In this document: positions 1,819-53,809 of the stretch, piece after piece
Position numbering within the stretch: position 1 is the first letter of the stretch
Layout: each line of letters opens with the position of its first letter
Virus record (IMG/VR): IMGVR_UViG_3300048583_000179
Span: 1 to 63,447 of that record
Source: a virus
Lineage: Duplodnaviria; Caudoviricetes
DNA: 63,447 nt
Reading direction: 5' to 3' (one strand)
Position numbers and translations under genes: made by a program
Notes under the pieces: model-generated
Seen by the model: only the letters and a program-made list of their open reading frames with translations
Told to the model about the DNA's origin: nothing
Database searches by the model: none

Positions 1819-2184
1819 CTAAAGCGCGTCGGCGATTTCTTGTTGCTTGCGGGAAACGGCGCGTTGCTCTACGCTAAAGTTCGTGATGTAGAGCAAGCTG
1901 CAATAGCTGCTCATGGAGTCAGTGAACATGGCCACCCGACCATCCCCAAAGACCGCATAGGCGCAGAACTGAAGCGGCTTGCCCGCTTCAGTCGTTGCTT
2001 TGCTTTCGTACGGCAGCACGGCAAGGCTATCAATCGTCAACGCCTTGCCGCCGCCCCGCGTCAGCTCAAACTCAGGCTCTGTGATCGTATAATCGCTGCA
2101 CCCCACCACCACGAAACTGACTATCAAACTCACGAGGACGACAAGCAAGGTGGTCAGCAGGATTTTACGATCCTCATTTACCAT
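1819..2184 (-). CDS. Putative lipoprotein / membrane-anchored protein
   Basis: Hydrophobic N-terminus ending in lipobox-like VVG-C. Confidence 0.55.
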   Translation of the reverse strand: MVNEDRKILLTTLLVVLVSLIVSFVVVGCSDYTITEPEFELTRGGGKALTIDSLAVLPYESKATTEAGKPLQFCAYAVFGDGRVAMFTDSMSSYCSLLYITNFSVEQRAVSRKQQEIADAL

Positions 2185-3365
2185 CTCTTCCCCCGGATTG
2201 CGCGATAGAAGGTTTCGTCACACCGTGGATAGTTTCCAACACCGTACATTCCCCACGAATGGGCACTGTCCAGTACCGCGACGCAGATCGTGGCACCTGC
2301 TGTGTCGATCGCTTCCATGCAGCTTCGCAGGTCAATGATTTGCGCGACGCCGCTTCCATAGGCAGCCTGACGACAGAGCGTATCTGCACGAGCGCTGATG
2401 CGATTGGGCAGCCATCCCCCTACGATAATGATAGTGCCTCGCCGAGCGATTGCGGAGTCTTTGACTGCCATGAAGATACCGTCCTTCCACGGCTGCCAGT
2501 GCTTATACGAAGCCACCGTTCCAAGGCAATCACCTGTCGGGGCCGTCGGGGTAGTCGCCGCTGGAACGAATGCCCACGACAACTGGAACGTTCCACCGCC
2601 ATCGTTGTTGAACCAGTCAACATGAATGGTGTGGGTGGCGTTCGTCAGCACGATCTGCTTGGTGAACGTTGTCGGAGCCAACGGTCGGTAATACTCTTCA
2701 AGCACTACCCCATCGACTAGCACGCGGAACCCATCGTCGCTGCGAATAGTGAACGTGTAGGTTCCCGCTGCCCAGACACCTGTTCCGTCCCACTGCGAGG
2801 ACTCTTCCTTTGGACTGCTGTAGCTGATGGCTCCGATGCTCGCGGTTGTGCTGTCTGGAGTTCTCGCCCACATGGAATCGCTTGCGGTACCCTTTGTGGG
2901 ATAGATAGAATACCACTTGCGCGTCCACGAGATGGCCGTTGCTGGAACCGTGGGCGTTGACCCGCCCGCGCCAAGCCTCACAGGGACACCGCCCTTGTAG
3001 GGCACCACACAGGCCGACCGGACTTCAGTGTTGCCGTAGTGAGGCGTCCAGTACATCACCTTGCTCCGGGTAGACCCGGCTGCCCTGACCCGCTTGGCCC
3101 CCTGCGCTGACTCCGGGCTACCGTTCTTGTCCACGTTGCGCCCGGTGGCGACCCAGTTCTGGGTGATTACGAAGCTGTCTGCAGTGAAGCCAGACACCGA
3201 CCACTTTAGGGTCTGCTTCACACTATCTCCGGCCGGGGTAAAGGTATTCACCCAGGACGAAGTCATGGACTGTGCCTCAGCGGGACAGCTTGAGAACACT
3301 AGAGCGAGAAACGCTCCGAACAGCAGGGTCAGGAAGATCGTGACGTTTCTAATGTTCTTCTCCAT
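2178..3365 (-). CDS. Secreted protein with PA14-like carbohydrate-binding domain
   Basis: Signal peptide (...CPAEA-Q); GTYTFTIRSDDGFRVLVDG...HTIHVDWFNNDGGGTFQLSW is a PA14 motif. Confidence 0.8.
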   Translation of the reverse strand: MEKNIRNVTIFLTLLFGAFLALVFSSCPAEAQSMTSSWVNTFTPAGDSVKQTLKWSVSGFTADSFVITQNWVATGRNVDKNGSPESAQGAKRVRAAGSTRSKVMYWTPHYGNTEVRSACVVPYKGGVPVRLGAGGSTPTVPATAISWTRKWYSIYPTKGTASDSMWARTPDSTTASIGAISYSSPKEESSQWDGTGVWAAGTYTFTIRSDDGFRVLVDGVVLEEYYRPLAPTTFTKQIVLTNATHTIHVDWFNNDGGGTFQLSWAFVPAATTPTAPTGDCLGTVASYKHWQPWKDGIFMAVKDSAIARRGTIIIVGGWLPNRISARADTLCRQAAYGSGVAQIIDLRSCMEAIDTAGATICVAVLDSAHSWGMYGVGNYPRCDETFYRAIRGKRW

Positions 3366-3428: not shown

Positions 3429-3809
3429 CTAGAACGGGGTAGGTTCGGACAGCCGCTTTTCGCCCCGTAGAATGGAGCGGGCTAGCTCGATGTTCGGCTT
3501 GCGATACCGCTGTCTGTCTATGCGCTCAACTGCACCGGGCCATTGAGCCGCGAATACGTACCATTTCGTATCTCCTCGGGCAAAATTACATCCGGCACAA
3601 GCGCACACCAGATTCTTTGACTTGTGGGTTCCGCCATGTTCCCTCGGGCGCAGATGGTCTAGGGTGATGTCCTTTGGATCAGCGTCCCGTAAGTCAGCGC
3701 TGCAATACTGACAGGTGAATCCGTCACGAATGTACAGGGCAAGACGGCGCGACCTGACGATCCACTTGCTTGTGCGGCCACTTCGCCTCTTCCATTGCTC
3801 CCTATTCAT
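3429..3809 (-). CDS. HNH endonuclease
   Basis: RDGFTCQYC...TLDHLRPREHGGTHKSKNLVCACAGCN; start re-called at ATG 3809, overlapping the upstream stop. Confidence 0.9.
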   Translation of the reverse strand: MNREQWKRRSGRTSKWIVRSRRLALYIRDGFTCQYCSADLRDADPKDITLDHLRPREHGGTHKSKNLVCACAGCNFARGDTKWYVFAAQWPGAVERIDRQRYRKPNIELARSILRGEKRLSEPTPF

Positions 3810-4290
3810 TGGCGGCGTCGCGCAGTCTTTCGGCGAATGTGGGGTTGCTTTGGAACAGTCTATTGAGGACGTCGTGATTAGCGGCGAGTATGCTTCGCCG
3901 AACAGCCCCATATCGAACAAGTACGACCGCACCGTTTCTAAGTAGAGCGTTGATGATGGGTGCGATGGCGGGGGTTTTGATGGCGTCTGGTCGGTTGACA
4001 TCAACTTCGCAGGTAATGATCTTGGGTGCGCCATCGATTTGCCCTTCCCTTTCCCAAAAGATAACCCGACTTCTGTCCGGCCGAGCGTCTTCGTTCCCTA
4101 CTCCGTAGACCCACGCACAATGAAACGTGCGGCAGCTTTCGGGTCGCTCTTCGTAGATCGTGCAACCGACGCCCACGTTGCAGTGATCACACTTTGTTCC
4201 AGCAGGCTTATTCAACTCGTTCACACCCACCACCGTGCAGCAATAGGTGCATCCTCCGCAGTCACGAACTGGCAGCGGTGTGTCGCTCAC
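3802..4290 (-). CDS. YkgJ-like cysteine-cluster (Zn/Fe-chelating) protein
   Basis: CGGCTYCC...KCDHC...CTIYEERPESCRTFHCAW motif. Confidence 0.8.
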   Translation of the reverse strand: MSDTPLPVRDCGGCTYCCTVVGVNELNKPAGTKCDHCNVGVGCTIYEERPESCRTFHCAWVYGVGNEDARPDRSRVIFWEREGQIDGAPKIITCEVDVNRPDAIKTPAIAPIINALLRNGAVVLVRYGAVRRSILAANHDVLNRLFQSNPTFAERLRDAANE

Positions 4291-6898: not shown

Positions 6899-6969
6899 CT
6901 GCCCCCCTTGGATTCGAACCAAGATTAACGGATCCAAAGTCCGCTGTCCTGCCATTGGACGAGGGGGCA
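6899..6969 (-). tRNA. tRNA-Gln(UUG)
   Basis: TGCCCCCTCGTCCAATGGCAGGACAGCGGACTTTGGATCCGTTAATCTTGGTTCGAATCCAAGGGGGGCAG folds as a cloverleaf; anticodon TTG; followed by TCA rather than CCA. Confidence 0.92.
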
Positions 6970-12468: not shown

Positions 12469-12580
12469 TCAGGTCTCCCCAATCAACTCCGAGAAGACGA
12501 CTCCAAGACGCGTAACCGCGTTCCAAATCTGGATTTCTCGTAGTACAGGTTGGGGAAGAATTGAACTCGCCTAGGGGAAT

Positions 12581-12604
12581 GAAACAGGGGGCCGAAGCCC
12601 CCTG
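12581..12604 (-). terminator. Intrinsic terminator after the 12625-13023 gene
   Basis: CAGGGGGC-TTCG-GCCCCCTG-TTTC on the minus strand. Confidence 0.75.
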
Positions 12605-12624
12605 CGTCATCCACCCCTTTGTCC

Positions 12625-13023
12625 TCAGGCCGGAGTGGCAGCCTCCACCGCCTTGGCCTTCGCGGCAGCCGCCGCCTCGCGCCGCTCCGCGAGGATGGCC
12701 GCGCAGCCGGGGCACCACGCCTCAGCCGCCTCGTGGCCCGGGATCGCCCCGCCCGGCGCGTAGGCCGCGTCCTTGGCCTCCTTCCGGCTGTTGAAGTGGG
12801 CGACAGTGCCGTGCGCCTCGCAGATGTTGACGAACGTGGTGCCCGGCGCGATGGGGCGGTAGCTGTTGATGCGAACGCCCGTGCTGCGGTTGACGCGCGA
12901 CCGGAACCTGTTGTGCGAGCCGCACGCCTCGGGGTCGGTGAGGACCCGCTCGGCGGGCGCGACGGTGGTCACCGGGGTCTCGGTGGTGGTTTCCGTCGCG
13001 GTGGTCTTCTGCTTCTTCGACAT
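12625..13023 (-). CDS. Zn-finger-like early protein, normally encoded paralog of 16294-16761
   Basis: Thr-rich N-tail, VNICEAHG...YAPGG...AWCPGCA; highly GC3-biased codons; own promoter and terminator. Confidence 0.8.
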   Translation of the reverse strand: MSKKQKTTATETTTETPVTTVAPAERVLTDPEACGSHNRFRSRVNRSTGVRINSYRPIAPGTTFVNICEAHGTVAHFNSRKEAKDAAYAPGGAIPGHEAAEAWCPGCAAILAERREAAAAAKAKAVEAATPA

Positions 13024-13078
13024 AGTGTACCCCCCCTGTTAGTGTGAGCCGCCCAGCGTCGTGCTGTAGCGTACACCA

Positions 13079-13107
13079 ATAATACTTCAACGCCACGTCG
13101 GACGCAA
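13079..13107 (-). promoter_or_regulatory. sigma70-like promoter TTGCGT-N17-TATTAT
   Basis: Near consensus; upstream of CTAACAGGGGGGGTAC leader. Confidence 0.75.
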
Positions 13108-13386
13108 TACCCGTTGAGGTCTTGTTACAGTTTGCCCCGGACTAAGTCTGCCCTCCACTTCTAGCAATCTCCGCGGGTGCGTGTTCTTATAATCGCTGCG
13201 GGCTCGCGCTCATATTGTCGCCTCTTCCTCGTGCTCTAGACTTCTCCTTCTAGATTTCTCACCCGGTGGCTCCGGCCAGCCCGAGTGCGGGGAGAACGAG
13301 ATAACGACAAGGCCCGACCGAGACCGAGAAAGGGCTAACAGGCTACGCCGAAGTGAGAAAGTGCTACGCTGATGAATACTGGGGGC

Positions 13387-13415
13387 TGGCGTGACGAATG
13401 GGTGGGGGCTATATT
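13387..13415 (+). promoter_or_regulatory. sigma70-like promoter TGGCGT-N17-TATATT
   Basis: Shares CTGGCGTGACGA...GCTATATT with the 43313-43341 promoter; followed by GTGCGC hairpin and leader. Confidence 0.7.
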
Positions 13416-13458
13416 GGGGGGTGCGCACCAACGCGCACCACACTAACAGGGGGTAGGT

Positions 13459-13824
13459 ATGTACGTGCCAACCTTGCAAAACAACGCCGTGCCGTGGCAG
13501 GTGCAGGTAGTGGCCATGGTGCCCAACAGCACCCCCGTTGCCCTACTGGGCAACTTGCAGCATGCCATGTATGCTGCCGCTGCCCCGTGGCACGGTAGCA
13601 TGGTGGCCAGTGTGGGCAACGCCACGGGGGAAAATGGGTGGTTGGAAGTTGCGTTTACCGCCCACATGCACCCCGCCTACATGCTGGTGGACAATGCGCA
13701 AGCGGTTACCCCCCGGCTAGTGCAACAGGGCGGGGAAATACTGGCGCAGTGGGTGGGGCACCTACATGCCATGCTGCCGGGGGCCGTGCTGTACCAAGCC
13801 AAGTTGGAAAACCCCAACTACTAG
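13459..13824 (+). CDS. Hypothetical immediate-early protein encoded in TC-free DNA
   Basis: CTAACAGGGGGT leader; zero TC and only 5 GA, all starting Asp/Glu codons. Confidence 0.8.
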   Translation: MYVPTLQNNAVPWQVQVVAMVPNSTPVALLGNLQHAMYAAAAPWHGSMVASVGNATGENGWLEVAFTAHMHPAYMLVDNAQAVTPRLVQQGGEILAQWVGHLHAMLPGAVLYQAKLENPNY

Positions 13825-13871
13825 GGGTAACCGGGTGGGGGGTAACCCCCACCCACCATACAGGGGGTACA

Positions 13872-14171
13872 ATGGAAGAAGCAACAGGGTGGTTGGTCTC
13901 AGTTACCATGCCGTACAGCCTAACTGAAGACAGGCACGTACAGGCTCTTCAAACCCTCACCAATTTCACTTCGCACATGCCAGACTTCTCCGAGGGAGAC
14001 GGGGGCACAAGCAGCGAAGAAGGGCGGGGCATGGTGTACGTGGAAGAAGTGTACAGCACCAGTCTCGGCCACGCCATGCAGTACCTCCAGCTCGCCCTGT
14101 CTCTGGGGGCGTACTGCGGGGATGTGGTGCCAGCCCGTATCGACGAAGAAGGGATACCCGTGGAGATGTAG
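13872..14171 (+). CDS. Small acidic early protein
   Basis: ATG after CATACAGGGGGTAC; MEEATGW...; no Lys, many Asp/Glu. Confidence 0.75.
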   Translation: MEEATGWLVSVTMPYSLTEDRHVQALQTLTNFTSHMPDFSEGDGGTSSEEGRGMVYVEEVYSTSLGHAMQYLQLALSLGAYCGDVVPARIDEEGIPVEM

Positions 14172-14276
14172 CGGGGGCGGGGCGAGAGCTCTCGCCCCGC
14201 CCCTTAGTAGGTGGGTACGAGAAAGGGCGATTGTTCTCTGGAGATGACCACTCCCCATCAAGACTTCTCAAGCCAC

Positions 14277-14305
14277 TTGCGTGGCGACTCAACGGGTGCT
14301 AGCTT
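14277..14305 (+). promoter_or_regulatory. sigma70-like promoter TTGCGT-N17-TAGCTT
   Basis: Repeated family; spacer contains GACTCAA. Confidence 0.7.
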
Positions 14306-14349
14306 ACAGTGTAGGGTAGTACAGCGATTCCAACCTAATAGGGGGTACC

Positions 14350-14628
14350 ATGCGCGAACCGGCCTACCTGTACCTGCAACTCTCGCCCAAGCCGGGCACC
14401 ACCGCAGAAGAAATTATTGCCTACTGGCAGCGGTTGGATTCCCTCGCGGTTACCATGTGCGGCGAAGGTGCGCAGCAGCACATGGCCAATTGGACGAACC
14501 ACGGCTACCTTGATTTTTGGGTGGCCCACCCCAACAGCGATACTTTGGGCCGGTTGAAAGCGGCATGGTTGGCCGTGCCCGCACCCGGCGAAACCGGGGC
14601 AGTAGTAGACGAAGGCGAAGGCGACTAA
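14350..14628 (+). CDS. Small acidic early protein
   Basis: CTAATAGGGGGTAC leader; own promoter. Confidence 0.75.
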   Translation: MREPAYLYLQLSPKPGTTAEEIIAYWQRLDSLAVTMCGEGAQQHMANWTNHGYLDFWVAHPNSDTLGRLKAAWLAVPAPGETGAVVDEGEGD

Positions 14629-14724
14629 TAGCAAACACCGGGGCGGCAGTTCTCGCCCCGGTAGGTGCCCACAGGGCGAGAAGTCTAGACCCCATCAGGC
14701 CCGATCGCGACTTCTCCGAGCCCC

Positions 14725-14753
14725 TTGTGTGCGGACTCAACGCGAGGTATTAT
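14725..14753 (+). promoter_or_regulatory. sigma70-like promoter TTGTGT-N17-TATTAT
   Basis: Repeated family; spacer contains GACTCAA. Confidence 0.7.
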
Positions 14754-14797
14754 ACAGGGTAGGCAATAGGCAACATCCTCACCTAACAGGGGGCACC

Positions 14798-15076
14798 ATG
14801 CCAGTCATCACTTTACCACAGGCCAAGTACACAACGTTCTACTTGGACAACGCAAGAGATTACACGTTGGACGAGTTTGCCCGTGTGGCCGCAGAGCACG
14901 AGATCCTGTGCGGCTACCTGCCGTGGGCCACGCCCGACGAGGACTTGGGCACCGTGGGAGAGTACTGGTTCCTCACGTTTACCAAGGCCCAACAGGCAGT
15001 GGTGGACGGGATGAACGGGTACCCCAGTGTCCTCGACTGGGTGACGGACGAGGGACCGTTTGACCTAAACATGTAG
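14798..15076 (+). CDS. Small acidic, aromatic-rich early protein
   Basis: Start re-called after CTAACAGGGGGC; MPVITLPQAKY... Confidence 0.75.
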   Translation: MPVITLPQAKYTTFYLDNARDYTLDEFARVAAEHEILCGYLPWATPDEDLGTVGEYWFLTFTKAQQAVVDGMNGYPSVLDWVTDEGPFDLNM

Positions 15077-15229
15077 GACTCGTGGGCGGGTGGGGGCTCG
15101 TGCCCTCGCCTCGCCGGTGTGTTCTTCAGAGAAAGGGTGACTGTGAGCTCCTGCCCTGAGCTCCTGTTCAAGACTTCTCGCCCCTGTGCTCCGGCGAAGA
15201 GCGCCGACTCACGCCGGCGCTGCTGACTC

Positions 15230-15394
15230 TTACTGCCGCCTCTTCGCCCGCTCTACCTGCCGACGGAGGTTGCGGAGGGTGGGGCTGACGTGATCCGACG
15301 GAGGCATGCGCAGTGCCCAGAAGACCATGCCGTAGTACAGGATGACTGCGAGCACGATGCCGAGCACCACGCGAATGTTGATGTCGTTGACCAT
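15230..15394 (-). CDS. Small single-TM protein (54 aa, not in ORF track)
   Basis: MVNDINIRVVLGIVLAVILYYGMVFWALR...; CTAACAGGAG leader. Confidence 0.65.
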   Translation of the reverse strand: MVNDINIRVVLGIVLAVILYYGMVFWALRMPPSDHVSPTLRNLRRQVERAKRRQ

Positions 15395-15447
15395 GGGGTG
15401 GATCTCCTGTTAGTGGTGGGGGGCTTGCGCCCCCCGGTTGATGGCGA

Positions 15448-15762
15448 CTACTGCGGGCCGTAGAAGCCGCGCAGCACGAGGTCCTGGTACCGCAGGGTGT
15501 ACGGCAGCTGAACGAGCTGGGTAATGGGACCGGTGATCCCCTTGTACGGGCGCACCCACAGGGTCTCACCGAGCAGTTCGTTGCCCCGGTATTCCTGCAG
15601 CGACACCCACAGCCCGTGACCGGGGTAGGTTTCGTCGCCGCTGAACCCCGCCACGCCCACCCAGTTCGCGCCCGCATGCACGGTGGTAATGCCCGTCATC
15701 TTGAACGCGGTGCGGGCTTCCTCGTCGGCTGCCAACAGCCTTGCCACCTTCACCTGTGCCAT
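15448..15762 (-). CDS. Hypothetical early protein
   Basis: CTAACAGGGGGTAC leader; own promoter. Confidence 0.75.
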   Translation of the reverse strand: MAQVKVARLLAADEEARTAFKMTGITTVHAGANWVGVAGFSGDETYPGHGLWVSLQEYRGNELLGETLWVRPYKGITGPITQLVQLPYTLRYQDLVLRGFYGPQ

Positions 15763-15803
15763 ACCGTACCCCCTGTTAGAGCGGCCCTTATTGGCCGCAC
15801 CTA

Positions 15804-15832
15804 AGTATACCTCGCATTGAGTCGTCGCGCCA
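15804..15832 (-). promoter_or_regulatory. sigma70-like promoter TGGCGC-N17-TATACT
   Basis: Repeated family; spacer contains GACTCAA; GCGGCC hairpin follows. Confidence 0.7.
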
Positions 15833-16098
15833 GTAGGCAGTTATCCTCCTGCAATCGCCCCTCCACGAAGCTCAACATCTCGGGTCAGGCGGTGACGACA
15901 GCCGGATGCGTGTCCTGCAATCTCTGCTCGGCCGAGCTCAAATCTAGATGTCTCGCTCCGGCGACATCGGGATCGGTCTCGGTCACACTATCTCGCCCGG
16001 TGGCGCTACAATCGCTGGACTCCATCGTTCAATTCCTCGTCATCTAACTCTCGCGTTCTCCCCTGTGGCGCGGGCGCAACACCCTGCTGTTGGGCGCA

Positions 16099-16185
16099 CG
16101 CCACATGTGGCGTGCCCGCTACGGTGCCAGGGCCACATGTGGCGCGGGTGCAACAAGCGGGTGTTGGGCGCACGCCACATGTGGC
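16099..16185. repeat. Three copies of the palindrome GCCACATGTGGC
   Basis: 16100-16111, 16132-16143, 16174-16185; copies 1 and 3 lie in a 24-bp direct repeat. Confidence 0.9.
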
Positions 16186-16206
16186 ACGCACGCACACCAC
16201 GGGGCA

Positions 16207-16278
16207 TAGCAAGGCCCGTGCCCCCTTGCGGGCACGGGCCTTGCTACCTGCCGCCCCCCGCCCCTTGCGGCGGGGGGC
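16207..16278 (-). terminator. Two tandem GC-rich hairpins (GCAAGG loops) downstream of 16294-16761
   Basis: 17-bp stem at 16207-16246 and 10-bp stem at 16253-16278; no U-tract. Confidence 0.55.
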
Positions 16279-16293
16279 TTTGCTACCGGGCTG

Positions 16294-16761
16294 CTAGGCC
16301 AGTGGTACGGCCCCGTGGGCTAGGGGGTTGGTGGCCCCTGCCGTGGCGGGGTTGGTGGCCACCACATGCGCTGCGCACCCCGCACACCATGCGGCGGGCG
16401 CGCCCGGTGCCTTGCCACTGGGGCCGCCCGGCACATACACCCCCTGCTTGGCGGTGCCCCGCGTAAGGTACCCCACGGCGTACCCGTGGGTGCCGCACAC
16501 GTTTACCCACAGGGGGCTGCCACCAAACGGGCGCAACATGTAAATGGTGGCGCCCGTTTGCTGGCACTTGCGCACCGGGCGGGCAGTGGCGGGCATGCCC
16601 TTGCCCGTGGCCAGTGCGGCGGCAACCGTGGCCAACTGGGTAGCCGTGGGGGTGCTTGTGGTGGCCGTGGGGGCGGTTGCCGCCACTGGGGCCGGGGTTG
16701 CCACTGGGGTGGCCGTGGGGGCGGCAGGGGCCGCCGTGGGGGTGCTGCGCTGCTTGGCCAT
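16294..16761 (-). CDS. Asp/Glu-free Zn-finger-like immediate-early protein
   Basis: 155 aa with no D or E; VNVCGTHG...YVPGG...AWCAGCA; own promoter and CTAATAGGTAGGT leader. Confidence 0.82.
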   Translation of the reverse strand: MAKQRSTPTAAPAAPTATPVATPAPVAATAPTATTSTPTATQLATVAAALATGKGMPATARPVRKCQQTGATIYMLRPFGGSPLWVNVCGTHGYAVGYLTRGTAKQGVYVPGGPSGKAPGAPAAWCAGCAAHVVATNPATAGATNPLAHGAVPLA

Positions 16762-16803
16762 GTGTACCTACCTATTAGGGCGGGCGGCATTGCCCGCACC
16801 CCC

Positions 16804-16831
16804 AAGTTAACCCATTTGCAACACTACGCAA
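16804..16831 (-). promoter_or_regulatory. sigma70-like promoter TTGCGT-N16-TAACTT
   Basis: Repeated family; lies inside the TC/GA-free island. Confidence 0.6.
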
Positions 16832-17031
16832 GGGGTGCGGCGGCACCCCCCAGTTACCCCACCCCCCACCCCCAAAAACGCGGCCCGCCCGCCCGCTGCC
16901 AGTCAGACCCAGCCCATGCGCCGATTTGAAAAATCCAACCCCAAAGCCCGCATGACGATGTTCATTGGTCTATAAAGATAAACGGGAGCCCCAGAATCAG
17001 GGCTCCCCGATTTTCTACGAGAGTTTAGGTA

Positions 17032-17289
17032 CTACATTCGTGAGGCGAGCCAGACATTGTACAAGGCCCGAGCGATTCCGGTCACCAGTGCGTAGCCGAC
17101 AGTTAGGCCCGCACCGAGCACTACCGATATCGTAAAGAGCGCGAGGTTCGAGGCAACCACGGACGGCTTCCCCGCATCCGACAAAGTGCGAGCCTTCTTG
17201 ATAAGGTCTTGAAACTCCGTGTCGTTCATGTGTCGCTCCACGATGTGAAGGTGCCCCTGCGCATCAATGCGATAGCTATTCAGCTGCAT
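17032..17289 (-). CDS. Small membrane protein
   Basis: MQLNSYRID... with C-terminal hydrophobic helix. Confidence 0.55.
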   Translation of the reverse strand: MQLNSYRIDAQGHLHIVERHMNDTEFQDLIKKARTLSDAGKPSVVASNLALFTISVVLGAGLTVGYALVTGIARALYNVWLASRM

Positions 17290-17491
17290 AGAGGATTTCC
17301 TGGAGGGCGCGGTGCAAGTCCCCCAGAAGCTCATCCCGCTTCACCGGGGCACGGTTCACTAGGACGAAGGCTTGCGTCCGCTGATGCTTGGGCAGTGCAG
17401 CGACGATCAAGGGAAGCATCAATGCAACGGCTTTCCCGAAGTCTTTTCCACCAAGCTTCTCAGCCTCTTTGTACCCCGCCATGAAATCCAA
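17276..17491 (-). CDS. Hypothetical protein
   Basis: 71-aa ORF divergent from terS. Confidence 0.5.
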   Translation of the reverse strand: MDFMAGYKEAEKLGGKDFGKAVALMLPLIVAALPKHQRTQAFVLVNRAPVKRDELLGDLHRALQEILYAAE

Positions 17492-17564
17492 GAGCTTCTC
17501 CGGTAAGGGTTACCCCCAATATAGGCGTCTTGCCTCACGAGCGACAGGGTGTGTAGTTTGTAGC

Positions 17565-43502: not shown

Positions 43503-43901
43503 CTATTGGGTTTTATGAGCCCCAGTGGGGTCGTCATGCGGATCTCCCTCGTAGAGTGGGCTGACTTCTTCAAGAGGGAACGGATCTTGGATCGCGAGGA
43601 TGCCTTGCGCATATGCTTCTGCCTCAATCAAGATAAGGTAGCGTCGCAGGTCGCGAATGCTTTCAATGGCTGACTCCCCACCTTCGTCAACCCGTGCAAT
43701 AGCCTTGAACACGTCGTACCCGCATGCCTTGGCCTGTTCCTCAAGCCTGTCGGCCTTACGAATACTGACCATGAAGGCACCCGGCCCACCCCGCTTTTTC
43801 CAACTTGCACCATAGGCGATATCTTTGGCAAGGACGGCTTCCGCATCAGCCTCTGCCACCATGCGGATGAAGTCGCGGTAGCTTGTGTCGTTGTTGTCCA
43901 C
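43503..43901 (-). CDS. Nucleotide-modification-associated MazG-like protein (Nmad1/DUF1599-like)
   Basis: KDIAYGASWKKRG...RKADRL...ESIRDLRRYLILIE; adjacent to the synthase. Confidence 0.7.
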   Translation of the reverse strand: MDNNDTSYRDFIRMVAEADAEAVLAKDIAYGASWKKRGGPGAFMVSIRKADRLEEQAKACGYDVFKAIARVDEGGESAIESIRDLRRYLILIEAEAYAQGILAIQDPFPLEEVSPLYEGDPHDDPTGAHKTQ

Positions 43902-44905
43902 TAGACCTCCTTCCAGGTACGCCGCTCAAGCCATTCCACGCACGCCTTGCGCCAGTCCTCGGCGCGGCACTCCTCAGCGGCAATGATGGCAAGTCCCTTG
44001 TTGCCTTGCTTGTAGAACTCCCAACTGTCAAACAGCGGGGTCACCACATACTGAAAGTACGGGGTTTGATAGTCCTCAGTGGGGTTGATGCCCTGTGCCT
44101 CGTTGGTAAATTCGCGCAGGTCGCGATCCCACTGGGCCTGAGTAACGTCGCCTGTGAATAGGGGGTAGGGGCGCACCAAGCCATTCTCATACGGGTCAAC
44201 ACGGAAAGACCCATGCTGAACAACGTTGTCCAGCTCATGCTTTTCCCAGACGTCCGTGTAGGCGTGGAAGTTGCCGCTCACCTGCTCGTACCACCCCACC
44301 TCGGCCTGAACGCACCCCGCCACATACTCTTGGATAACGCTGAAGTGAACTGCATTGGCCCCGAACGTGCCCCAAATCATATCGTTGCTGCGGTTGAACA
44401 CCAACATGTTCAGGCGGTTGGCGGGGTCAACCTCTAGCTTGATGCCCACATTGCAGGGGATGTCATTGCTGTTGGCCCCTACATCCTTTGGAAAGTAGAT
44501 GGGCACGTACACCCGCCGACTGTACCTGTCCTTCTGTAGCATGGTGACGGCTTCAGCCAACATGTCGCCGCCAGTGTCACGACGCATGCGGAACCCGTAG
44601 GCACCGTAGAAGTACTCACCGTCGTCACTGTACTTGGCGATCTGGCTATTGAACTGGGCAAGCCAACGAACGTCCTTGCGCCCGGCCAAGATCCACAGGC
44701 TTTCAAACAGGTGGAAGTACGGGTTGGCATCACGGTCCTCACCGAACAGCACCCGCTCCATGGGCCGACGGTAGGTTGTCACCACGGGCTCGTTCGCCAC
44801 ATAGGCCGACCCGTTACGGGTCTTTTGAATGTAGCCGTAGTAGTGAAGCAACCGTGCTCCGAGCACGTATGCCTCGTTTACATTCCGTGCATTAATGGTG
44901 TGCAT
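43901..44905 (-). CDS. Thymidylate-synthase-fold enzyme, probable dUMP hydroxymethylase
   Basis: RDANPYFHLFE, DIPCN, NRSNDMIWG..GANAVHFS, NFHAY, as in YuA/M6-type enzymes. Confidence 0.85.
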   Translation of the reverse strand: MHTINARNVNEAYVLGARLLHYYGYIQKTRNGSAYVANEPVVTTYRRPMERVLFGEDRDANPYFHLFESLWILAGRKDVRWLAQFNSQIAKYSDDGEYFYGAYGFRMRRDTGGDMLAEAVTMLQKDRYSRRVYVPIYFPKDVGANSNDIPCNVGIKLEVDPANRLNMLVFNRSNDMIWGTFGANAVHFSVIQEYVAGCVQAEVGWYEQVSGNFHAYTDVWEKHELDNVVQHGSFRVDPYENGLVRPYPLFTGDVTQAQWDRDLREFTNEAQGINPTEDYQTPYFQYVVTPLFDSWEFYKQGNKGLAIIAAEECRAEDWRKACVEWLERRTWKEV

Positions 44906-45025: not shown

Positions 45026-45970
45026 CTAGGACGCGGCTTTCCGCCAGTCATACGTCACCTTGGGTCGCCCCTCGCCGGTTTTGGCTCGCAGGTACTTGTC
45101 AGTTTCGCACAAGCTGTGTTCAATGTCCCGCATTTCTAGAGAACCCGGAATGTGATTACCCAACGGGCTACCGACATCATTGGCCACGGCAAGCAGCCCC
45201 CGCATAAGGGCTAGGGCCGTTTGCTGTCGCAGAGGGGCATCAGCGATGCGCCCTGCCAGTCTATTTAGCCCCCGCAGTGCCCCCGGCCCGGCATTAGCCC
45301 ATGTCATGATGTCTGGAGCATTGCGAAGGTACCGTGTCCACCGAAGGTCGGTGACCACTTCGTAGGCAATGAACGGCCCGAAGCCATTGTAGTTGCGAAA
45401 CCACTTCCAGACCTGCTCCAATGAATATTGGGTGCCGCCATTCACAGCAGGGTCAAACAGTTCATCAAAGTCACGGCTTTCGCCCGCACGAGTGGCGTCC
45501 CAGATTGGCTTCAGCACATGGGTAAAGACGAAGTCTTCCTTTGGCATGCTCTTACCCCCGTTCGTAATGAGGTAGGCATTACCAAAGGTCTTCAGCCCGT
45601 TGGCCTGACGGCCCGTATAGATTGACTTCCATTGGTCGTAGTCAAACTCATCTGGCAGGGCGGTTTCGCGTAGTAGCTGACGCAGCGTACCGGGCCAATT
45701 CGTATTCCGCGCCATGGCGAGTAGAAACCACAGGTTGTGGTGCTTCGCGTAGGGCTTACGAATATTTTCTTCAATCCAGATGGTGACGGTGTCCAGCTCG
45801 CGAAACACGTTGCAGAATCTATAATCGCGGAGAATAGGGTCATCCGTCCACGGACCCGAATTCCCACTCTTCCTCCGTAGGTAGATCTTGTGCCGCTCGT
45901 TGATCCAGTAGAAGAAGGGCTCGGCGTCCAGCTCCCATTCTTCATCGTCTACTGGGATGGTTACTTTCAT
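45026..45970 (-). CDS. 5-hmdU DNA kinase helical-domain protein (aGPT-PPlase1 family)
   Basis: FFYWINERH..Y...GPWTDDPIL..YRFCNVFRELD, GFGPFIAYEVVTDL, GPGALRGL, DIEHSLCETDKY. Confidence 0.88.
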   Translation of the reverse strand: MKVTIPVDDEEWELDAEPFFYWINERHKIYLRRKSGNSGPWTDDPILRDYRFCNVFRELDTVTIWIEENIRKPYAKHHNLWFLLAMARNTNWPGTLRQLLRETALPDEFDYDQWKSIYTGRQANGLKTFGNAYLITNGGKSMPKEDFVFTHVLKPIWDATRAGESRDFDELFDPAVNGGTQYSLEQVWKWFRNYNGFGPFIAYEVVTDLRWTRYLRNAPDIMTWANAGPGALRGLNRLAGRIADAPLRQQTALALMRGLLAVANDVGSPLGNHIPGSLEMRDIEHSLCETDKYLRAKTGEGRPKVTYDWRKAAS

Positions 45971-46242
45971 ATACGAGGCTTTCTTTTAGGGGGCGTTCCA
46001 AGCTGTGTCAGCACTTCGGTCAGTACGGTCAACGCGTCTTTGTGCCGTACTCCATCAGCTACGAGGGCTTCAGTTTCCAGCCACTTTTGTTGAAACATGG
46101 CTGTCGGTATCTTAAAGAGTAGAGGCCGTACCGCATCCAAGCGAGCTTGATTGCACCGTAGACAGTTGTCCACGAGGCAATAGTCATCGCACAAGGCGTT
46201 ACGAAACGCCTCAAGGATTTGGGCCTCCAGGTCCTCTTTCAC
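45967..46242 (-). CDS. Hypothetical protein
   Basis: Coupled ORF inside the modification cluster. Confidence 0.55.
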   Translation of the reverse strand: MKEDLEAQILEAFRNALCDDYCLVDNCLRCNQARLDAVRPLLFKIPTAMFQQKWLETEALVADGVRHKDALTVLTEVLTQLGTPPKRKPRI

Positions 46243-46829
46243 AAACCGAGAAGCTCAATGGTGTGTTCCACTGCCATCTCGTGATTGATCCACACCCACG
46301 GCACCCCGTCGGCCTTGGCTTTCTGTTCGCACCGCAGGACGTCATTGTACATCTTTTCCGTGTTGTGCGTGTTGAACTGGCGGGACTTGCCCTTGTTCTC
46401 ACGGCGGTCGCCTACCCGCTGAATAGCCTTGTCAAGCGGCGTGTCCAGTGCCGCGAGTACCATGCGGCCCGGATACTCGTTCAGGGCCATATCAGCGTAC
46501 CGCTGATAAATGTGGCTAATGAGCAAGCCTTCGAACAGTACCTTGTGCCCCATGGCCCGCAGAGTGCGAACCCTGTCCTGAATGATGTCTTGTGCCCGGC
46601 CCTTCTCAGTAATGCCGTCACAGCCCCCGCAGTCGTTTTGGTAGTCGCCGACGATGGCGAGCTTGGGGGTGGCGGTCATGTACCAGTCGTACTTGATCTT
46701 CTTTTTACCTGCGCTGTTGCCGATGGCCGGAAACTCGGGCTTCATGTCAAACGCTTTGATAAGCTCCGTCATCAGCGTTGACTTGCCGCTGCCACTTGTA
46801 CCACGGATGTTGATGATGTCGTACGGCAC
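46239..46829 (-). CDS. P-loop kinase of thymidine-hypermodification clusters
   Basis: IINIRGTSGSGKST, GDY...CGGCDGI, VLFEGLLIS, LDTP...RV..RR. Confidence 0.85.
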   Translation of the reverse strand: MPYDIINIRGTSGSGKSTLMTELIKAFDMKPEFPAIGNSAGKKKIKYDWYMTATPKLAIVGDYQNDCGGCDGITEKGRAQDIIQDRVRTLRAMGHKVLFEGLLISHIYQRYADMALNEYPGRMVLAALDTPLDKAIQRVGDRRENKGKSRQFNTHNTEKMYNDVLRCEQKAKADGVPWVWINHEMAVEHTIELLGL

Positions 46830-46915: not shown

Positions 46916-47704
46916 TTACTCGGCCGTGGCTTCGCCGGAGTCATCAGCACCGACAGCCGCCTTGGCCTTCTTAGCCTTCTTTGGCTTGGCAGCCTTCGGT
47001 TCCGCGCCCTCCTCGGCCTCAGCAGCCTTCGCCTTCGGCGGCTTCGGCGGCTCGGGGATCACGTGCTCCAGCGGGGCACGGAGGCCCGTGGGCAGCACGA
47101 GCTGATAGTACACCCGGCCATCCACGATGCTGGACTTGATGCCGTAGCCGTGCACCTTGTAGACGCGGCCCGACAGAGCGCGGCCCTTGCGCTCCAGCGC
47201 CGACTTCAGGTCATCCGCGAAGACACCCGCGTACAGCAGGTCGATCATGTGAGCGATCTTGCTGCCCTGCCGCGCCGCCTTGATCTGGTCCAGCGCCTTC
47301 GGCTCGATCTGCGTCAGGTGCGGGCCACGGGGCGTCGCCTCCGCGCCCTCCGCCTTCGGCTTACGGTTGCGCTTCTTCTTGCCGCCCTCTTCCACGGCCT
47401 CGGTCGCCTCGTTGCTCTCGCTTGCACTCATGTTGTACACCGCTCCGTATCCCGCCATAATGGCGTTTTCGTGTGAAGTGAACCGCTTGATCTTGATCGT
47501 GTGCGTGTGGTTGAACGCACCCAGCAGAATTGACATGGGCACTTCTTCCAAGTGCTCACGGTTACGCTGCCAGAGAATCCACCGACCCTCCTTGGGATTA
47601 TGGGTTGTGACGCGAGCGTCTGGCGGCACTCGCGTCACCCGGAACTTGCCTTCCGGGATGCGCTCAATGAGCAATGACGTGTGAGTTGCTGGATACTGAA
47701 CCAT
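46916..47704 (-). CDS. Putative DNA-binding protein with Lys/Ala-rich tail
   Basis: wHTH-like core (RQGSKIAHMIDLL...HGYGIKS); PKKAKKAK tail; CTAACAGAGGGGT leader. Confidence 0.6.
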   Translation of the reverse strand: MVQYPATHTSLLIERIPEGKFRVTRVPPDARVTTHNPKEGRWILWQRNREHLEEVPMSILLGAFNHTHTIKIKRFTSHENAIMAGYGAVYNMSASESNEATEAVEEGGKKKRNRKPKAEGAEATPRGPHLTQIEPKALDQIKAARQGSKIAHMIDLLYAGVFADDLKSALERKGRALSGRVYKVHGYGIKSSIVDGRVYYQLVLPTGLRAPLEHVIPEPPKPPKAKAAEAEEGAEPKAAKPKKAKKAKAAVGADDSGEATAE

Positions 47705-52370: not shown

Positions 52371-53219
52371 TTAGAATGCCTTGTCGGACACAACTTCGGC
52401 CTTGGCCTCGGCCTCGAACTCTTCCAGCTTAACCTTGGCCCGGCCCGCCGTGACCAGATCCCGGAACTCGCGGGCGGCGAGGTAGGTGTTGCCTCCGTTG
52501 GGAAGCGTGACCAGATCCGGGCCGTACTCGATCTTGACACCCATCCAGCTGCCCTGATCGTTGCTCTCGGGCACCGTGGTGAAGCGGTACGCCTTGTAGA
52601 ACGGTGCCGGGCGGAAGGGCACCCCGGTCGTGGGGTGCCCGATTTGCAAGGTGCTGATCAGGCTGTTGAAACGGCGGGACTTCTTGAGCTGCGACCCGTA
52701 CAGGTTGACCACGACTTGGCTGAACCCACCATTGTCGTTGACAATGAAGCCGTAGTACATACCGGACTGCACGAGGTGATTGCCGTTGGGCAACACGAGC
52801 TTGCCCTTGTCGTCGCGGGTGGCCGACTTCATAACGCTGTCGTCCATGCCGTGGTCCTTCACCAGACCGCCGCCCGTATCGCGCGGACGCCACTCGGTGT
52901 AGGACGGGCGGAACGCGCACGGCACGAAGAGGAAGCCCGTCTCCCCCTTCCAGTGCTCCATGGTCACGTTGTTGAAGAAGTCACCCTCTTCCAGCCCCTG
53001 AATGTACTCCGCTGCCCGCTTGTCAATCTGCGGGGACATCTTCTGGGCCACCTTCACAAACGGGATGGCCACATCCTCGGCCCTAAACCCAAGATCCTGC
53101 TGCGCATCCTCCATCAGCAGCGAGGGGTCCAGCGCCGCCGCGAGGGCGGTTGTCTGCGAGGCTCCCGGTGCCGCCACAGCCGTTCCGGGTGTCTTGGCGG
53201 AATCAGCCTTGCTTGCCAT
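52371..53219 (-). CDS. Putative ssDNA-binding protein
   Basis: DVAIPFVKVAQKMSPQ, EWRPR..GGG, SQLKKSRRFN, ESNDQGSW; acidic C-terminus ending in F. Confidence 0.7.
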   Translation of the reverse strand: MASKADSAKTPGTAVAAPGASQTTALAAALDPSLLMEDAQQDLGFRAEDVAIPFVKVAQKMSPQIDKRAAEYIQGLEEGDFFNNVTMEHWKGETGFLFVPCAFRPSYTEWRPRDTGGGLVKDHGMDDSVMKSATRDDKGKLVLPNGNHLVQSGMYYGFIVNDNGGFSQVVVNLYGSQLKKSRRFNSLISTLQIGHPTTGVPFRPAPFYKAYRFTTVPESNDQGSWMGVKIEYGPDLVTLPNGGNTYLAAREFRDLVTAGRAKVKLEEFEAEAKAEVVSDKAF

Positions 53220-53245
53220 GATTTGCTCCTTGAGCGTTTGGTTGG

Positions 53246-53809
53246 CTACTCTTCATCATCAGTGGTTGTTTGGCCCGCGACTACGGCCCGCTGCCCCACA
53301 AAGATGTGAAGCAGGTCGTGGGGCAGGTCAGCCCCGGTGGGAACGACCTTCTTAACCCATGCCTTCAGGGTAGAAGGATGAACACCTTCCTTGACGGTGG
53401 TGCGGCCTCCGCGATTTTCTGCGATGGCGGCGAGGCCCATGGCCTCCGACCGCATTTCACGGTCAAACGCTGCTTCCACCGTGTACTTGATGAGGTTACC
53501 GTGGCCGTTGTCCAACAGCCACTTCATTGCATCGGCATGGCCCGCCTTGGGAATGCGGGCGCTGACAATGTTTTCCAGGTTGACGGTGCTGCCGCCGATG
53601 GTTACCGTGTGAATGTTATCGGCAAGCATGGCCCCCGGCAGCGTCACTTCCTGTAGCTCGCGCAGCTTTGCCTTGGCTTCCTTCAGCTTGGCTTCCTGCT
53701 CGGCCACATACTGCACTCCCTTGATTACGCGCACCGCGAGATCCAGCGTCGCCTTACTGGCGTGGCCCTTGCTGTCTGCTGCGAAGTCAATCGTAGCACT
53801 GTTAGTCAT
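53246..53809 (-). CDS. Conserved replication-module protein
   Basis: WLLDNGHGNLIK...VHPSTLKAWVK motif. Confidence 0.7.
   Translation of the reverse strand: MTNSATIDFAADSKGHASKATLDLAVRVIKGVQYVAEQEAKLKEAKAKLRELQEVTLPGAMLADNIHTVTIGGSTVNLENIVSARIPKAGHADAMKWLLDNGHGNLIKYTVEAAFDREMRSEAMGLAAIAENRGGRTTVKEGVHPSTLKAWVKKVVPTGADLPHDLLHIFVGQRAVVAGQTTTDDEE

What the first reader, a model, noticed from the sequence alone, without database searches (positions are those of the whole stretch)
13398..13874. Second near-TC-free unit that hints at the avoided motif (only GGA/TCC tolerated)
Seen: no TC on + from 13273 to 13896, and none on either strand in 13398-13629. In 13398-13874 there are just five GA (13630, 13645, 13690, 13735, 13806). 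Each starts one of the protein's five acidic codons, and each is preceded by G. Inference: where an acidic residue is indispensable, the preceding codon ends in G to give GGA (TCC on the other strand), so TCC may be a poor substrate and the target may be TC followed by A/G/T. The five retained acidic residues are good candidates for functional residues.
Basis: partly seen in the sequence, partly recalled or inferred. Interest (0 to 1): 0.8.

Follow-up and report, generated by a model that had tools for sequence, protein, structure and literature searches.

The report
Motif-free gene islands in phage
A phage that carries genes for decorating its thymines spaces the DNA word TC(A/G/T) unusually evenly along its genome, yet has erased it from two small gene units, one of them examined here, probably to keep those units free of the decoration.

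Summary
Window 13396-13878 (481 bp: promoter-like site, a 121-aa gene, a hairpin) has no TCA/TCG/TCT on either strand. It has only five TC/GA, where about 56 are expected. All five are GGA at in-frame Glu/Asp codons. A second unit, 16058-16904, has none at all. No other dinucleotide shows such runs, and none of 5 related phage genomes or 161 other loci has such an island.

TCC sites are not. However, TCC is also absent from the second island, so it is tolerated rather than neutral.

The island-B gene is a duplicate of an ordinary neighbouring gene, recoded to lose every TC/GA and every acidic residue. The substitution pattern and the raised GC exclude deaminase hypermutation.

Best reading (about 0.6): TCD is the context of this phage's own 5-hmdU-derived thymidine hypermodification, and the two units are kept modification-free. 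Why they must be is inferred, not shown. The modification itself was not observed.

The parts
13396..13878 (.). Island A: 481-bp run with no TCA/TCG/TCT or TGA/CGA/AGA on either strand; only five TC/GA, all GGA
13272..13896 (+). Sense-strand TC-free stretch (625 bp), which extends beyond the two-strand island
13387..13415 (+). Promoter-like site of unit A: TGGCGT (13387-13392), 17 nt, TATATT (13410-13415). Same class as the other early promoter-like sites. Inferred, not shown.
   Evidence: sequence read
13459..13824 (+). Gene A, 121 aa, no detectable homologue. Modest-confidence ferredoxin-like predicted fold. Acidic residues only at E58, E63, D78, E93, E117.
13833..13854 (+). Hairpin GGGTGGGGG-GTAA-CCCCCACCC that closes unit A, just before the next gene (ATG 13872)
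   Evidence: sequence read
13273..13396 (+). Flank: GA-rich (17 against 7.2 expected) and TC-free (0 against 7.4) on the + strand
13120..13271 (+). Flank: TC-rich on the + strand (20 against 9.1 expected), GA-poor (3 against 8.8)
12625..13023 (-). Ordinary-composition paralogue of gene B (132 aa, CxxH...CxxC), transcribed divergently from unit A
16058..16904 (.). Island B: 845 bp with no TCD/HGA; 16060-16902 has no TC or GA at all on either strand
16294..16761 (-). Gene B, 155 aa, no Asp/Glu. Recoded duplicate of 12625-13023 that keeps all 11 family-invariant residues.
16804..16831 (-). Promoter-like site of unit B: TTGCGT (16831-16826), 16 nt, TAACTT (16809-16804). A second G-flanked copy lies at 16861-16843.
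16060..16293 (-). Downstream of gene B: two strong hairpins and three GCCACATGTGGC palindromes (fold z -6.8)
15820..16059 (+). Flank of island B: TC-dense on the + strand (37 against 14.3 expected)
46239..46829 (-). P-loop kinase, homologue of YuA gp13 / M6 gp54 (5-hmdU DNA kinase)
45026..45970 (-). PF18723 (HMUDK_hel) protein, homologue of YuA gp14 / M6 gp55.
43901..44905 (-). Thymidylate-synthase homologue (candidate dUMP hydroxymethylase)

Best explanation
The phage makes DNA with 5-hydroxymethyl-dU and then hypermodifies a subset of these bases. The proposed context is T followed by C, chiefly TCA/TCG/TCT. Selection keeps such sites densely and evenly spread over almost the whole genome, presumably so that no stretch is left unprotected. 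Two small, self-contained transcription units have instead been purged of the word on both strands, so their DNA stays canonical whatever the modification state of the rest. These are 13396-13878 (gene A) and 16058-16904 (gene B). The purge used synonymous codon choice, choice of bases at codon junctions, and replacement of amino acids whose codons need TC or GA. Where gene A keeps an acidic residue, the preceding codon ends in G, so the template strand reads TCC, the least avoided form.

Shown here: the sequence patterns, the recoding, the gene content, and the even spacing. Inferred: that TCD is the modification context. More weakly inferred: that the units must be unmodified so they can be read or bound independently of modification, for example transcribed by unadapted host RNA polymerase from the injected, fully modified chromosome.
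For: 1. Scale and specificity. Only GA/TC, of 10 dinucleotide classes, gives long free runs. TCD/HGA-free runs are 845 and 481 bp, and the next longest is 57 bp. P values are about 1e-42 and 3e-17.

2. The effect is at DNA level and follows unit boundaries. Both strands are free. Non-coding DNA is included: about 140 bp upstream of gene B and about 230 bp of hairpins downstream. The edges are sharp.

3. Selection acts on codons. Given the amino-acid sequences, gene A should have 10.7 non-acidic TC/GA codons and 13.2 TC/GA codon junctions, and has 0 and 0. Gene B should have 10.5 and 17.0, and has 0 and 0. The paralogue 12625-13023 is ordinary (31 against 25.1; 12 against 14.4).

4. Recoding after duplication. 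B and the paralogue share an insertion absent from the 7 other family members, and B keeps all 11 invariant residues. In the paralogue, 2 of 48 identical-residue columns carry a TC/GA codon, and both are synonymously changed in B. Of the 82 differing columns, 28 carry one (Fisher P 6e-5).

5. Genome-wide counterpart. Outside the islands, gaps of at least four mean spacings between TCD/HGA sites number 18 against 90.4 expected. In five chunks of about 7-13 kb the ratios are 0.10-0.29 and variance/mean-squared is 0.61-0.73. In 89 control loci the minimum ratio is 0.52 and the minimum variance/mean-squared is 0.85, and 0 of 89 are as low as any chunk. In 23 long genes the observed variance/mean-squared is 0.639 against 0.969 +/- 0.030 in 200 synonymous shuffles. 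Gaps of 40 bp or more number 11 against 51.3 +/- 6.0, and 0 of 200 shuffles reach either observed value. TCC shows no such effect (1.000 against 0.989).

6. Gene content: TS-like enzyme, family-A polymerase, P-loop kinase homologous to M6 gp54, and a PF18723 protein.

7. Precedent. Passages of PMC6449724 report that restriction-resistant sites in M6, ViI and phiW-14 DNA carry TG or TC, and propose that the 5-hmdU DNA kinase prefers T followed by G or C. PMC8989533 and PMC5889632 state that 5-hmdU is converted in sequence-specific contexts.

8. Plausibility of an effect on transcription. The abstract of PMC4838386 reports that bulky major-groove groups block E. coli and B. subtilis RNA polymerase, probably at initiation.
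Against: - No modification was observed. No sequencing run holding this DNA could be listed.
- No aGPT-Pplase2-type transferase was found among the 33 ORFs I scanned. The final base, if any, is therefore unknown.
- The five other phages with the homologous kinase cluster (YuA, M6, Sonora, Ab20, Simon) have no island, and their TCD spacing is normal. The link between this cluster and the pattern therefore rests on one genome.
- Published specificity is TG or TC, whereas here CA/TG is enriched 1.6-1.7-fold inside the islands.
- If only initiation were sensitive (PMC4838386 abstract), a TC-free promoter would suffice. Yet whole units are purged, while unit A's -35 region and upstream spacer still hold GA (13393, 13396).
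- For T7 RNA polymerase, phage-type uracil modifications had mixed, partly positive effects (abstract of PMC11550810).
- The synonymous-shuffle test has a background of z about -2 to -4 for other dinucleotides.
- The sense-strand TC-free zone is longer than the two-strand island in both units. The model does not predict this.
Confidence: 0.6

Rival explanations
1. TC(D) is the target of a DNA-acting enzyme unrelated to the phage's own hypermodification. Candidates are a host defence or phage-encoded nuclease, nickase, deaminase or thymine ADP-ribosyltransferase with very short specificity. The two units encode functions that must stay intact or expressed under attack, so they are immune by lacking the site.
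For: Both strands and non-coding DNA are purged. The non-template strand is the more strictly purged in both units, as might be expected for enzymes acting on single-stranded DNA exposed during transcription. Enzymes with TC-type contexts exist: TC-preferring deaminases, DarT with TNTC, and a CCD-specific nickase. These are recalled, with no call behind them.
Against: A harmful target should be depleted genome-wide. Instead TC and GA are at 0.96-0.97 of expectation. TCD count in long genes is slightly above the synonymous-shuffle mean (3276 against 3178). The sites are actively spread out, and 0 of 200 shuffles are as even. Protecting two small genes while the rest of the chromosome stays fully exposed gives little obvious benefit.
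Confidence: 0.15
2. The constraint is on RNA. The two mRNAs must lack UC (and mostly GA) to escape an endoribonuclease of host or phage with dinucleotide-level specificity, as ACA-less mRNAs escape MazF (recalled).
For: The strictly TC-free zone follows the sense strand and is longer than the two-strand island: 13272-13896 on + for gene A, and 16905-16019 on - for gene B. In gene A the only tolerated sites are GA in the mRNA, never UC.
Against: The antisense strand is purged too (0 in B, 5 in A). About 65-140 bp upstream of the promoter-like sites of unit B is also free on both strands. The genome-wide even spacing counts both strands regardless of gene orientation. No RNase was identified among the ORFs scanned.
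Confidence: 0.1
3. The islands are the footprint of a mutational process, such as saturating TC-to-TT deamination (APOBEC- or DddA-like), rather than of selection.
For: TC/GA is the context preferred by such deaminases (recalled). AA/TT is mildly raised in island B (observed/expected 1.45).
Against: GC is higher in the islands (61.9% and 72.2%) than in the genome (57.8%). Acidic residues of the paralogue are replaced in B by A, P, T, G, H, V and Q, never by K or N. Lys is not enriched. Both ORFs are intact, and B keeps all invariant family residues. The edges coincide with unit boundaries.
Confidence: 0.02

Closest known systems
Sequence-specific 5-hmdU-derived thymidine hypermodification (phages M6, YuA, PaMx11, ViI, phiW-14, SP10)
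   Same: A TS-like hydroxymethylase, a family-A polymerase, a P-loop kinase homologous to M6 gp54, and a PF18723 protein homologous to YuA gp14 (46% identity) sit together. Partial modification in dinucleotide contexts, TG or TC, has been proposed for M6, ViI and phiW-14 (PMC6449724).
   Different: No clade-2 aGPT-Pplase transferase was detected among the ORFs scanned. The implied context here is TC, chiefly TCD, and not TG. None of five genomes with the homologous cluster shows a motif-free island or the TCD spacing. No paper found in searches describes modification-free islands.
Restriction-site avoidance in phage genomes, including early-entering regions (e.g. T7 early region; recalled)
   Same: Local or global loss of short words under selection from DNA-acting enzymes; small early genes are affected.
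   Different: Here a non-palindromic dinucleotide is removed completely from both strands of whole units, at the cost of every acidic residue in one protein. The same word is kept evenly spaced everywhere else. The avoided word is probably the phage's own mark rather than a host restriction site.
ACA-less, MazF-resistant mRNAs (recalled)
   Same: Whole genes recoded to lack a short word, so that expression continues when other messages are attacked.
   Different: That avoidance concerns the RNA strand only. Here both DNA strands and untranscribed DNA are purged.
T4 Alc / hmC-dependent transcription (recalled)
   Same: An example in which a phage base modification decides which DNA is transcribed.
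   Different: There is no evidence here for such a factor. In T4 the modification is uniform, not motif-specific, and no unmodified islands are known.

Membership tests
5-hmdU-derived thymidine hypermodification system | Thymidylate-synthase homologue acting as dUMP hydroxymethylase | tested here: met
   43901-44905(-): Pfam PF00303 E 4e-17; PHROG 5131 E 7.5e-96. Homology only; the activity is not shown.
5-hmdU-derived thymidine hypermodification system | P-loop 5-hmdU DNA kinase (M6 gp54 type) | tested here: met
   46239-46829(-): tblastn to the YuA gp13 and M6 gp54 regions, 30.5% over 177 aa, E 1e-8; 33-35% to the kinase-region homologues in Simon, Ab20 and Sonora (annotated nucleotide kinase in Sonora; the other two records are unannotated). 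Pfam PF18748 E 3e-5, below its cut-off. The M6 gp54 function is taken from PMC8989533 Table 1.
5-hmdU-derived thymidine hypermodification system | Clade-2 aGPT-Pplase (amino acid or amine : DNA transferase) | tested here: not met
   No Pfam, PHROG or tblastn hit among the 33 ORFs scanned. ORF 46916-47704, which sits in the syntenic position, has no match. Not every ORF of the genome was scanned.
5-hmdU-derived thymidine hypermodification system | Hypermodified thymidine present in virion DNA in a defined sequence context | not testable with these tools
   No sequencing run could be listed. Only indirect sequence statistics are available.
Deaminase (TC-context) hypermutation footprint | TC-to-TT / GA-to-AA excess, falling GC, Glu-to-Lys and Asp-to-Asn changes | tested here: not met
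   GC is 61.9% and 72.2% against 57.8%. No Glu-to-Lys or Asp-to-Asn change among 12 acidic positions of the paralogue. Lys is not enriched.
mRNA-interferase-resistant (word-less) genes | Avoidance confined to the sense strand of the transcribed region | tested here: not met
   The antisense strand and promoter-upstream DNA are purged as well. The sense-strand zone is, however, somewhat longer.
Restriction-site avoidance in early-entering DNA | Avoided words are host restriction sites (mostly palindromes of 4-6 bp), at the genome end that enters first | tested here: inconclusive
   The avoided word is a 2-3 nt non-palindrome. Palindromes such as ACATGT, CCATGG and GTTAAC remain inside the islands. 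The physical genome ends and the direction of entry are unknown.

The most novel reading that the evidence does not exclude
TCD-directed hypermodification acts as a genome-wide transcriptional lock as well as a shield. The injected chromosome is unreadable, or only poorly readable, by naive host RNA polymerase. The exception is the two TCD-purged cassettes, which serve as bootstrap immediate-early units. Their products are a ferredoxin-like protein without known homologues and an acid-free zinc-binding duplicate of a later-expressed protein. These would adapt the cell to read modified DNA. Motif presence or absence would then be a new kind of cis-regulatory code in a virus, written into codon choice across the whole genome.
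Probability: 0.2. Interest if true: 0.92.

Novelty: new variant of a known kind. Interest (0 to 1): 0.85.

Why it matters
The sequence context of thymidine hypermodification is still poorly defined. The 2018 and 2019 papers I read call it unknown or only inferred from restriction patterns. If the reading here is right, this genome reveals its own context, TCD, from sequence alone, through two opposite signatures: even spacing almost everywhere and total absence in two units. It would also show that a phage can exempt chosen genes from its own DNA modification, at the price of rebuilding a protein without acidic residues. That implies the modification has a cost for some DNA transaction, most likely expression. 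It also gives a direct handle on which genes act before or independently of modification. In addition, the spacing test offers a general way to guess modification motifs in other phage genomes. YuA shows a weaker TC signal in the same test.

Tried and rejected
- blastn of 13000-16000 against the phage collection: no match.
- Gene A: 1 hit among 4 candidates, a 74-aa fragment identical to itself. No relative in viral contigs, no Pfam or PHROG family, no paralogue in the genome.
- Gene B and its paralogue as single queries: no relative in viral contigs.
- TerL as a single query: none in viral contigs.
- Family alignment A4 was too variable for a pattern scan. A narrower alignment, A5, gave one viral locus, L083, with an ordinary-composition homologue and no island. 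It gave none in genome contigs.
- No sequencing run was listed for 12500-17500, and no RNA holder was listed.
- The AlphaFold2 model of gene B (pLDDT 67, pTM 0.53) found no PDB fold at E <= 0.001.
- Alignment of gene A with four neighbouring small proteins showed no relationship.
- The region 13100-13460 is not unusually structured (z +0.87).
- I first took the G-flanked elements as a separate promoter class. Alignment showed they fit the same TTGCGT-N16/17-TAnnnT pattern as the neighbouring promoter-like sites, so I dropped that idea.
- The 1439-aa ORF 56303-60622 was checked as a possible RNA polymerase. It is a repeat-rich protein with one weak sugar-binding match.
- Two cyanophage genome papers held none of the terms sought on modification.
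- Supplementary tables of PMC6449724, which give per-enzyme digestion results, could not be seen. They might refine the TG/TC claim.
Full report
**What the window is.** The 63,447-bp window is the whole held genome. It is a 57.8% GC tailed-phage genome.
- Structural genes lie on the + strand from about 17.4 to 40.5 kb.
- Replication and nucleotide genes lie on the - strand from about 40.7 to 63.4 kb.
- Small genes with their own promoter-like sites and hairpins fill the first 17 kb.
- The phage encodes a thymidylate-synthase homologue (43901-44905), a family-A DNA polymerase, an AEP primase, two UvrD-type helicases and a PF18723 protein (45026-45970, E 2e-48).
- It also encodes a P-loop kinase (46239-46829). 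By local tblastn this is the homologue of YuA gp13 / M6 gp54 (30.5% over 177 aa, E 1e-8).
- In passages of PMC8989533, M6 gp54 is the demonstrated 5-hmdU DNA kinase. M6 gp55, the counterpart of 45026-45970, was dispensable in the reconstitution.
- TerL is at most about 35% identical to cyanosiphovirus terminases in the phage collection.
- The PF18723 protein is 45-48% identical to those of YuA/M6-like Pseudomonas phages.

**The observation.** It holds, with one off-by-one.
- There is no TC on the + strand from 13272 to 13896, and no GA from 13397 to 13629.
- There are five GA, at 13630, 13645, 13690, 13735 and 13807.
- All five are in-frame Glu/Asp codons of ORF 13459-13824. They are its only acidic residues, and each is preceded by a G-ending codon.
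- Against a genome mean of 35 TC+GA per 300 bp, five in 478 bp has Poisson P 2e-18.
- The cleanest description is a 481-bp run (13396-13878) with no TCA/TCG/TCT or their complements.
- A second run of 845 bp (16058-16904) has none either, and 16060-16902 has no TC or GA at all. The third-longest such run in the genome is 57 bp.
- Control: among all ten strand-symmetric dinucleotides, only GA/TC has free runs above about 1.3 times the expected maximum.
- TC and GA are not depleted genome-wide (observed/expected 0.96-0.97).

**Anatomy.** Each island is a complete small transcription unit.
- Unit A has a promoter-like TGGCGT-N17-TATATT (13387-13415), the ribosome-binding region ACAGGGGGTAGGT, gene A (121 aa), and a hairpin at 13833-13854 just before the next gene (ATG 13872).
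- Unit B is on the - strand. It has TTGCGT-N16-TAACTT (16831-16804), a second G-flanked copy upstream, and gene B (155 aa). Downstream lie two strong hairpins and three GCCACATGTGGC palindromes (fold z -6.8).
- The promoter-like sites belong to the same class as those of neighbouring ordinary genes (14277-14305, 14719-14763, and 15834-15808 on the - strand). Those sites carry GACTCAAYG in the spacer.
- Island edges are sharp and are flanked by strand-asymmetric blocks. The + strand is TC-dense at 15820-16059 (37 against 14.3 expected) and at 13120-13271 (20 against 9.1). It is GA-dense and TC-free at 13273-13396 (17 against 7.2; 0 against 7.4).
- I have no tested explanation for these blocks.

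**Selection, not composition or mutation.** The pattern reflects selection on codons.
- Given their amino-acid sequences and the codon usage of 23 long genes, gene A should hold 10.7 non-acidic TC/GA codons and 13.2 TC/GA junctions. Gene B should hold 10.5 and 17.0. Both have none.
- Acidic residues number 5 in A (14 expected) and 0 in B (18 expected).
- Gene B is a paralogue of the ordinary gene 12625-13023 (BLASTP 40% over 70 aa, E 4e-12).
- A profile search of 1.8 billion representatives found 9 proteins at E <= 0.001. Eight are 116-142 aa. One of these is the paralogue itself, and the other seven all have Asp, Glu and Lys.
- B keeps all 11 invariant residues, including C-x2-H and C-x2-C. 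It shares an insertion only with its genomic paralogue. It is therefore a within-lineage duplicate that was later recoded.
- In the codon alignment, 2 of 48 identical-residue columns carry a TC/GA codon in the paralogue, and both were changed synonymously in B (ATC to ATT, GTC to GTA). Of the 82 differing columns, 28 carry one (Fisher P 6e-5).
- Acidic residues became A, P, T, G, H, V or Q, never K or N. The islands are more GC-rich than the genome (61.9% and 72.2%). This excludes a TC-to-TT deaminase footprint.

**Is it found elsewhere?** I found it nowhere else.
- Gene A has no detectable homologue. The Atlas's own model of it suggests a ferredoxin-like fold at modest confidence (pTM 0.63).
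- One viral contig with a gene-B homologue has ordinary composition.
- None of five whole genomes with the homologous kinase/PF18723 cluster has any dinucleotide-free island (YuA, M6, Sonora, Ab20, Simon).
- In 80 metagenome loci of TerL relatives (at most 48% identity) scanned together with YuA (0.9 Mb in all), the most extreme free run of any dinucleotide was an AA/TT-free 232 bp at log10 P -14.7. None of the 15 most extreme rows was GA/TC.
- In 80 loci from bacterial and archaeal genome contigs (1.23 Mb), the longest GA/TC-free run was 111 bp.
- The closest TerL relatives (70% and 67%) could not be fetched.

**The genome-wide counterpart (new here).** Outside the islands the same word is spread unusually evenly.
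- For GA/TC, gaps of at least four mean spacings number 21 against 110 expected, and the longest gap is 49 bp. This is the most under-dispersed of all ten dinucleotides.
- I split TC by the following base. The set TCA+TCG+TCT keeps the whole effect (18 against 90.4). Sets that swap in TCC for TCG or for TCA lose it (47 against 76.1; 55 against 79.9).
- In five chunks of about 7-13 kb, the TCD ratios are 0.10-0.29 and variance/mean-squared is 0.61-0.73. In 89 control loci of at least 12 kb the minima are 0.52 and 0.85. None of the 89 is as low as any chunk.
- TCC alone is ordinary in the window. The five other cluster-bearing phages are ordinary for TCD.
- I shuffled synonymous codons within each of 23 long genes, keeping proteins and codon usage. 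This gives variance/mean-squared 0.969 +/- 0.030 against 0.639 observed, and 51.3 +/- 6.0 gaps of 40 bp or more against 11 observed. Zero of 200 shuffles reach either value.
- In the same test TCC shows nothing (1.000 against 0.989) and is rarer than in shuffles (828 against 1073). AG/CT shows nothing. CA/TG and AC/GT show z about -3.
- The same test on 16 YuA genes gives a background of z -1.5 to -3.8 and a stronger TC signal (z -6.9). The test is therefore not perfectly neutral, but the window's TCD value of about -11 stands far outside that background.
- These analyses were exploratory, and several subsets were compared.

**Interpretation.** A word that is kept at normal frequency, spread evenly by synonymous codon choice over 60 kb, and yet erased from two units is most simply a functional DNA mark that the phage wants nearly everywhere.
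- The gene content points to 5-hmdU-derived thymidine hypermodification.
- The literature I read says such modification is sequence-specific. For M6, ViI and phiW-14 it is associated with T followed by G or C (PMC6449724 passages).
- I therefore take TCD as the likely context here. All TC is 28% of thymines on either strand (one search counts).
- On this reading the islands are deliberately unmodified units.
But TCC is not neutral: it is absent from island B (0 against 20.9, P 8e-10) and reduced in island A (5 against 11.9, P 0.02).
- The five tolerated sites all lie on the template strand, so a strand effect cannot be separated from a TCC effect.
- Four of the five are GGAA, and Glu is GAA 4 of 4 against 320:342 GAA:GAG in long genes. 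That is too few to interpret.

**Why exempt two units?** This step is inference.
- Bulky major-groove groups can block bacterial RNA polymerases (abstract of PMC4838386). Effects of phage-type uracil modifications on T7 RNA polymerase were mixed (abstract of PMC11550810).
- A duplicate pair, in which one copy is ordinary and the other is TC-free, fits a function needed both independently of and together with modification. An example would be immediate expression from the injected, fully modified chromosome. I hold this at about 0.2-0.3.
- Points against: whole units rather than only promoters are purged; unit A's -35 region still holds GA; and late genes with normal TC content must also be transcribed somehow.

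**Rivals.** I considered three.
- A TC-directed DNA enzyme unrelated to the phage's own modification (0.15). It fits the both-strand purge but predicts depletion, not even spacing.
- An RNA-level nuclease (0.1). It fits the longer sense-strand zone but not the antisense strand or the DNA upstream of the promoter-like sites.
- Deaminase hypermutation (0.02). The substitution spectrum contradicts it.

**Novelty.**
- Searches of the held library found no description of motif-free or modification-free islands in a modified phage genome. That library lacks most subscription journals.
- The modification pathway is a known kind.
- The paired signature appears to be new. It consists of an evenly spaced motif together with purged transcription units, one of them a protein rebuilt without acidic residues.

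**Limits.**
- No chemical or read-level evidence of modification was available.
- The function of both island proteins is unknown.
- The host is unknown.
- Everything rests on a single genome.

Noticed in passing
window 6899-6969 (-): A single tRNA-Gln (anticodon TTG) gene (ARAGORN; Rfam 60.5 bits). Gln is over-represented in gene A (9 against 4.3 expected), but its CAA:CAG use there is 4:5.
   Followed up: partly
window 14277-14305 (+), 14719-14763 (+), 15834-15808 (-): Three promoter-like sites, TTGYGT-N17-TAnnnT, share an exact GACTCAAYG core in the spacer. This core holds a TC on both strands. Each site lies about 35-45 bp before a small gene with the ribosome-binding region ACAGGGGGTAnnATG. 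A pattern search gives 3 matches, no more than shuffles give at 2 mismatches, but all 3 are exact.
   Followed up: partly
window 16099-16184: Three copies of the palindrome GCCACATGTGGC sit inside a 48-nt inverted repeat downstream of gene B. This may be a protein-binding site, but its function is unknown.
   Followed up: no
window 13120-13396 and 15820-16059: Strand-asymmetric TC-dense and GA-dense blocks abut both islands (P 4e-7 to 1e-3). No explanation was tested.
   Followed up: partly
window 52371-54276 (-): Three consecutive ORFs match Pfam families named after cyanophage Pam3 gp34, gp33 and gp32 (E 5.5e-54, 5e-23, 6.5e-12). This hints at kinship with freshwater cyanophages.
   Followed up: no
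window 56303-60622 (-): A 1439-aa ORF with many repeats of about 20 aa (AVARTxxVSRxxGLA...) and no Pfam or PHROG family. It has one weak match to a sugar-binding protein, and it lies among replication genes.
   Followed up: partly
window 14445-14650 (+): A third, much weaker sense-strand TC-free stretch (206 bp against about 138 expected longest) inside gene 14350-14628. GA is present there.
   Followed up: no
L001+L002 (Pseudomonas phage YuA): In the synonymous-shuffle test, TC/GA in 16 YuA genes is also spaced more evenly than expected (z -6.9 against a background of -1.5 to -3.8). TCC is enriched rather than depleted there. This might reflect a TC-type modification context in YuA/M6.
   Followed up: partly
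L059 8622-8853; L092 3221-3540: Other loci hold shorter runs free of other dinucleotides: AA/TT-free for 232 bp, and CA/TG- and AA/TT-free for about 315 bp. They were not inspected and may be simple or repetitive sequence.
   Followed up: no
window 3429-4034 (-), 2178-3365 (-): An HNH endonuclease (E 1.7e-8) and a PA14-domain protein (E 1.3e-7) lie among the early small genes.
   Followed up: no
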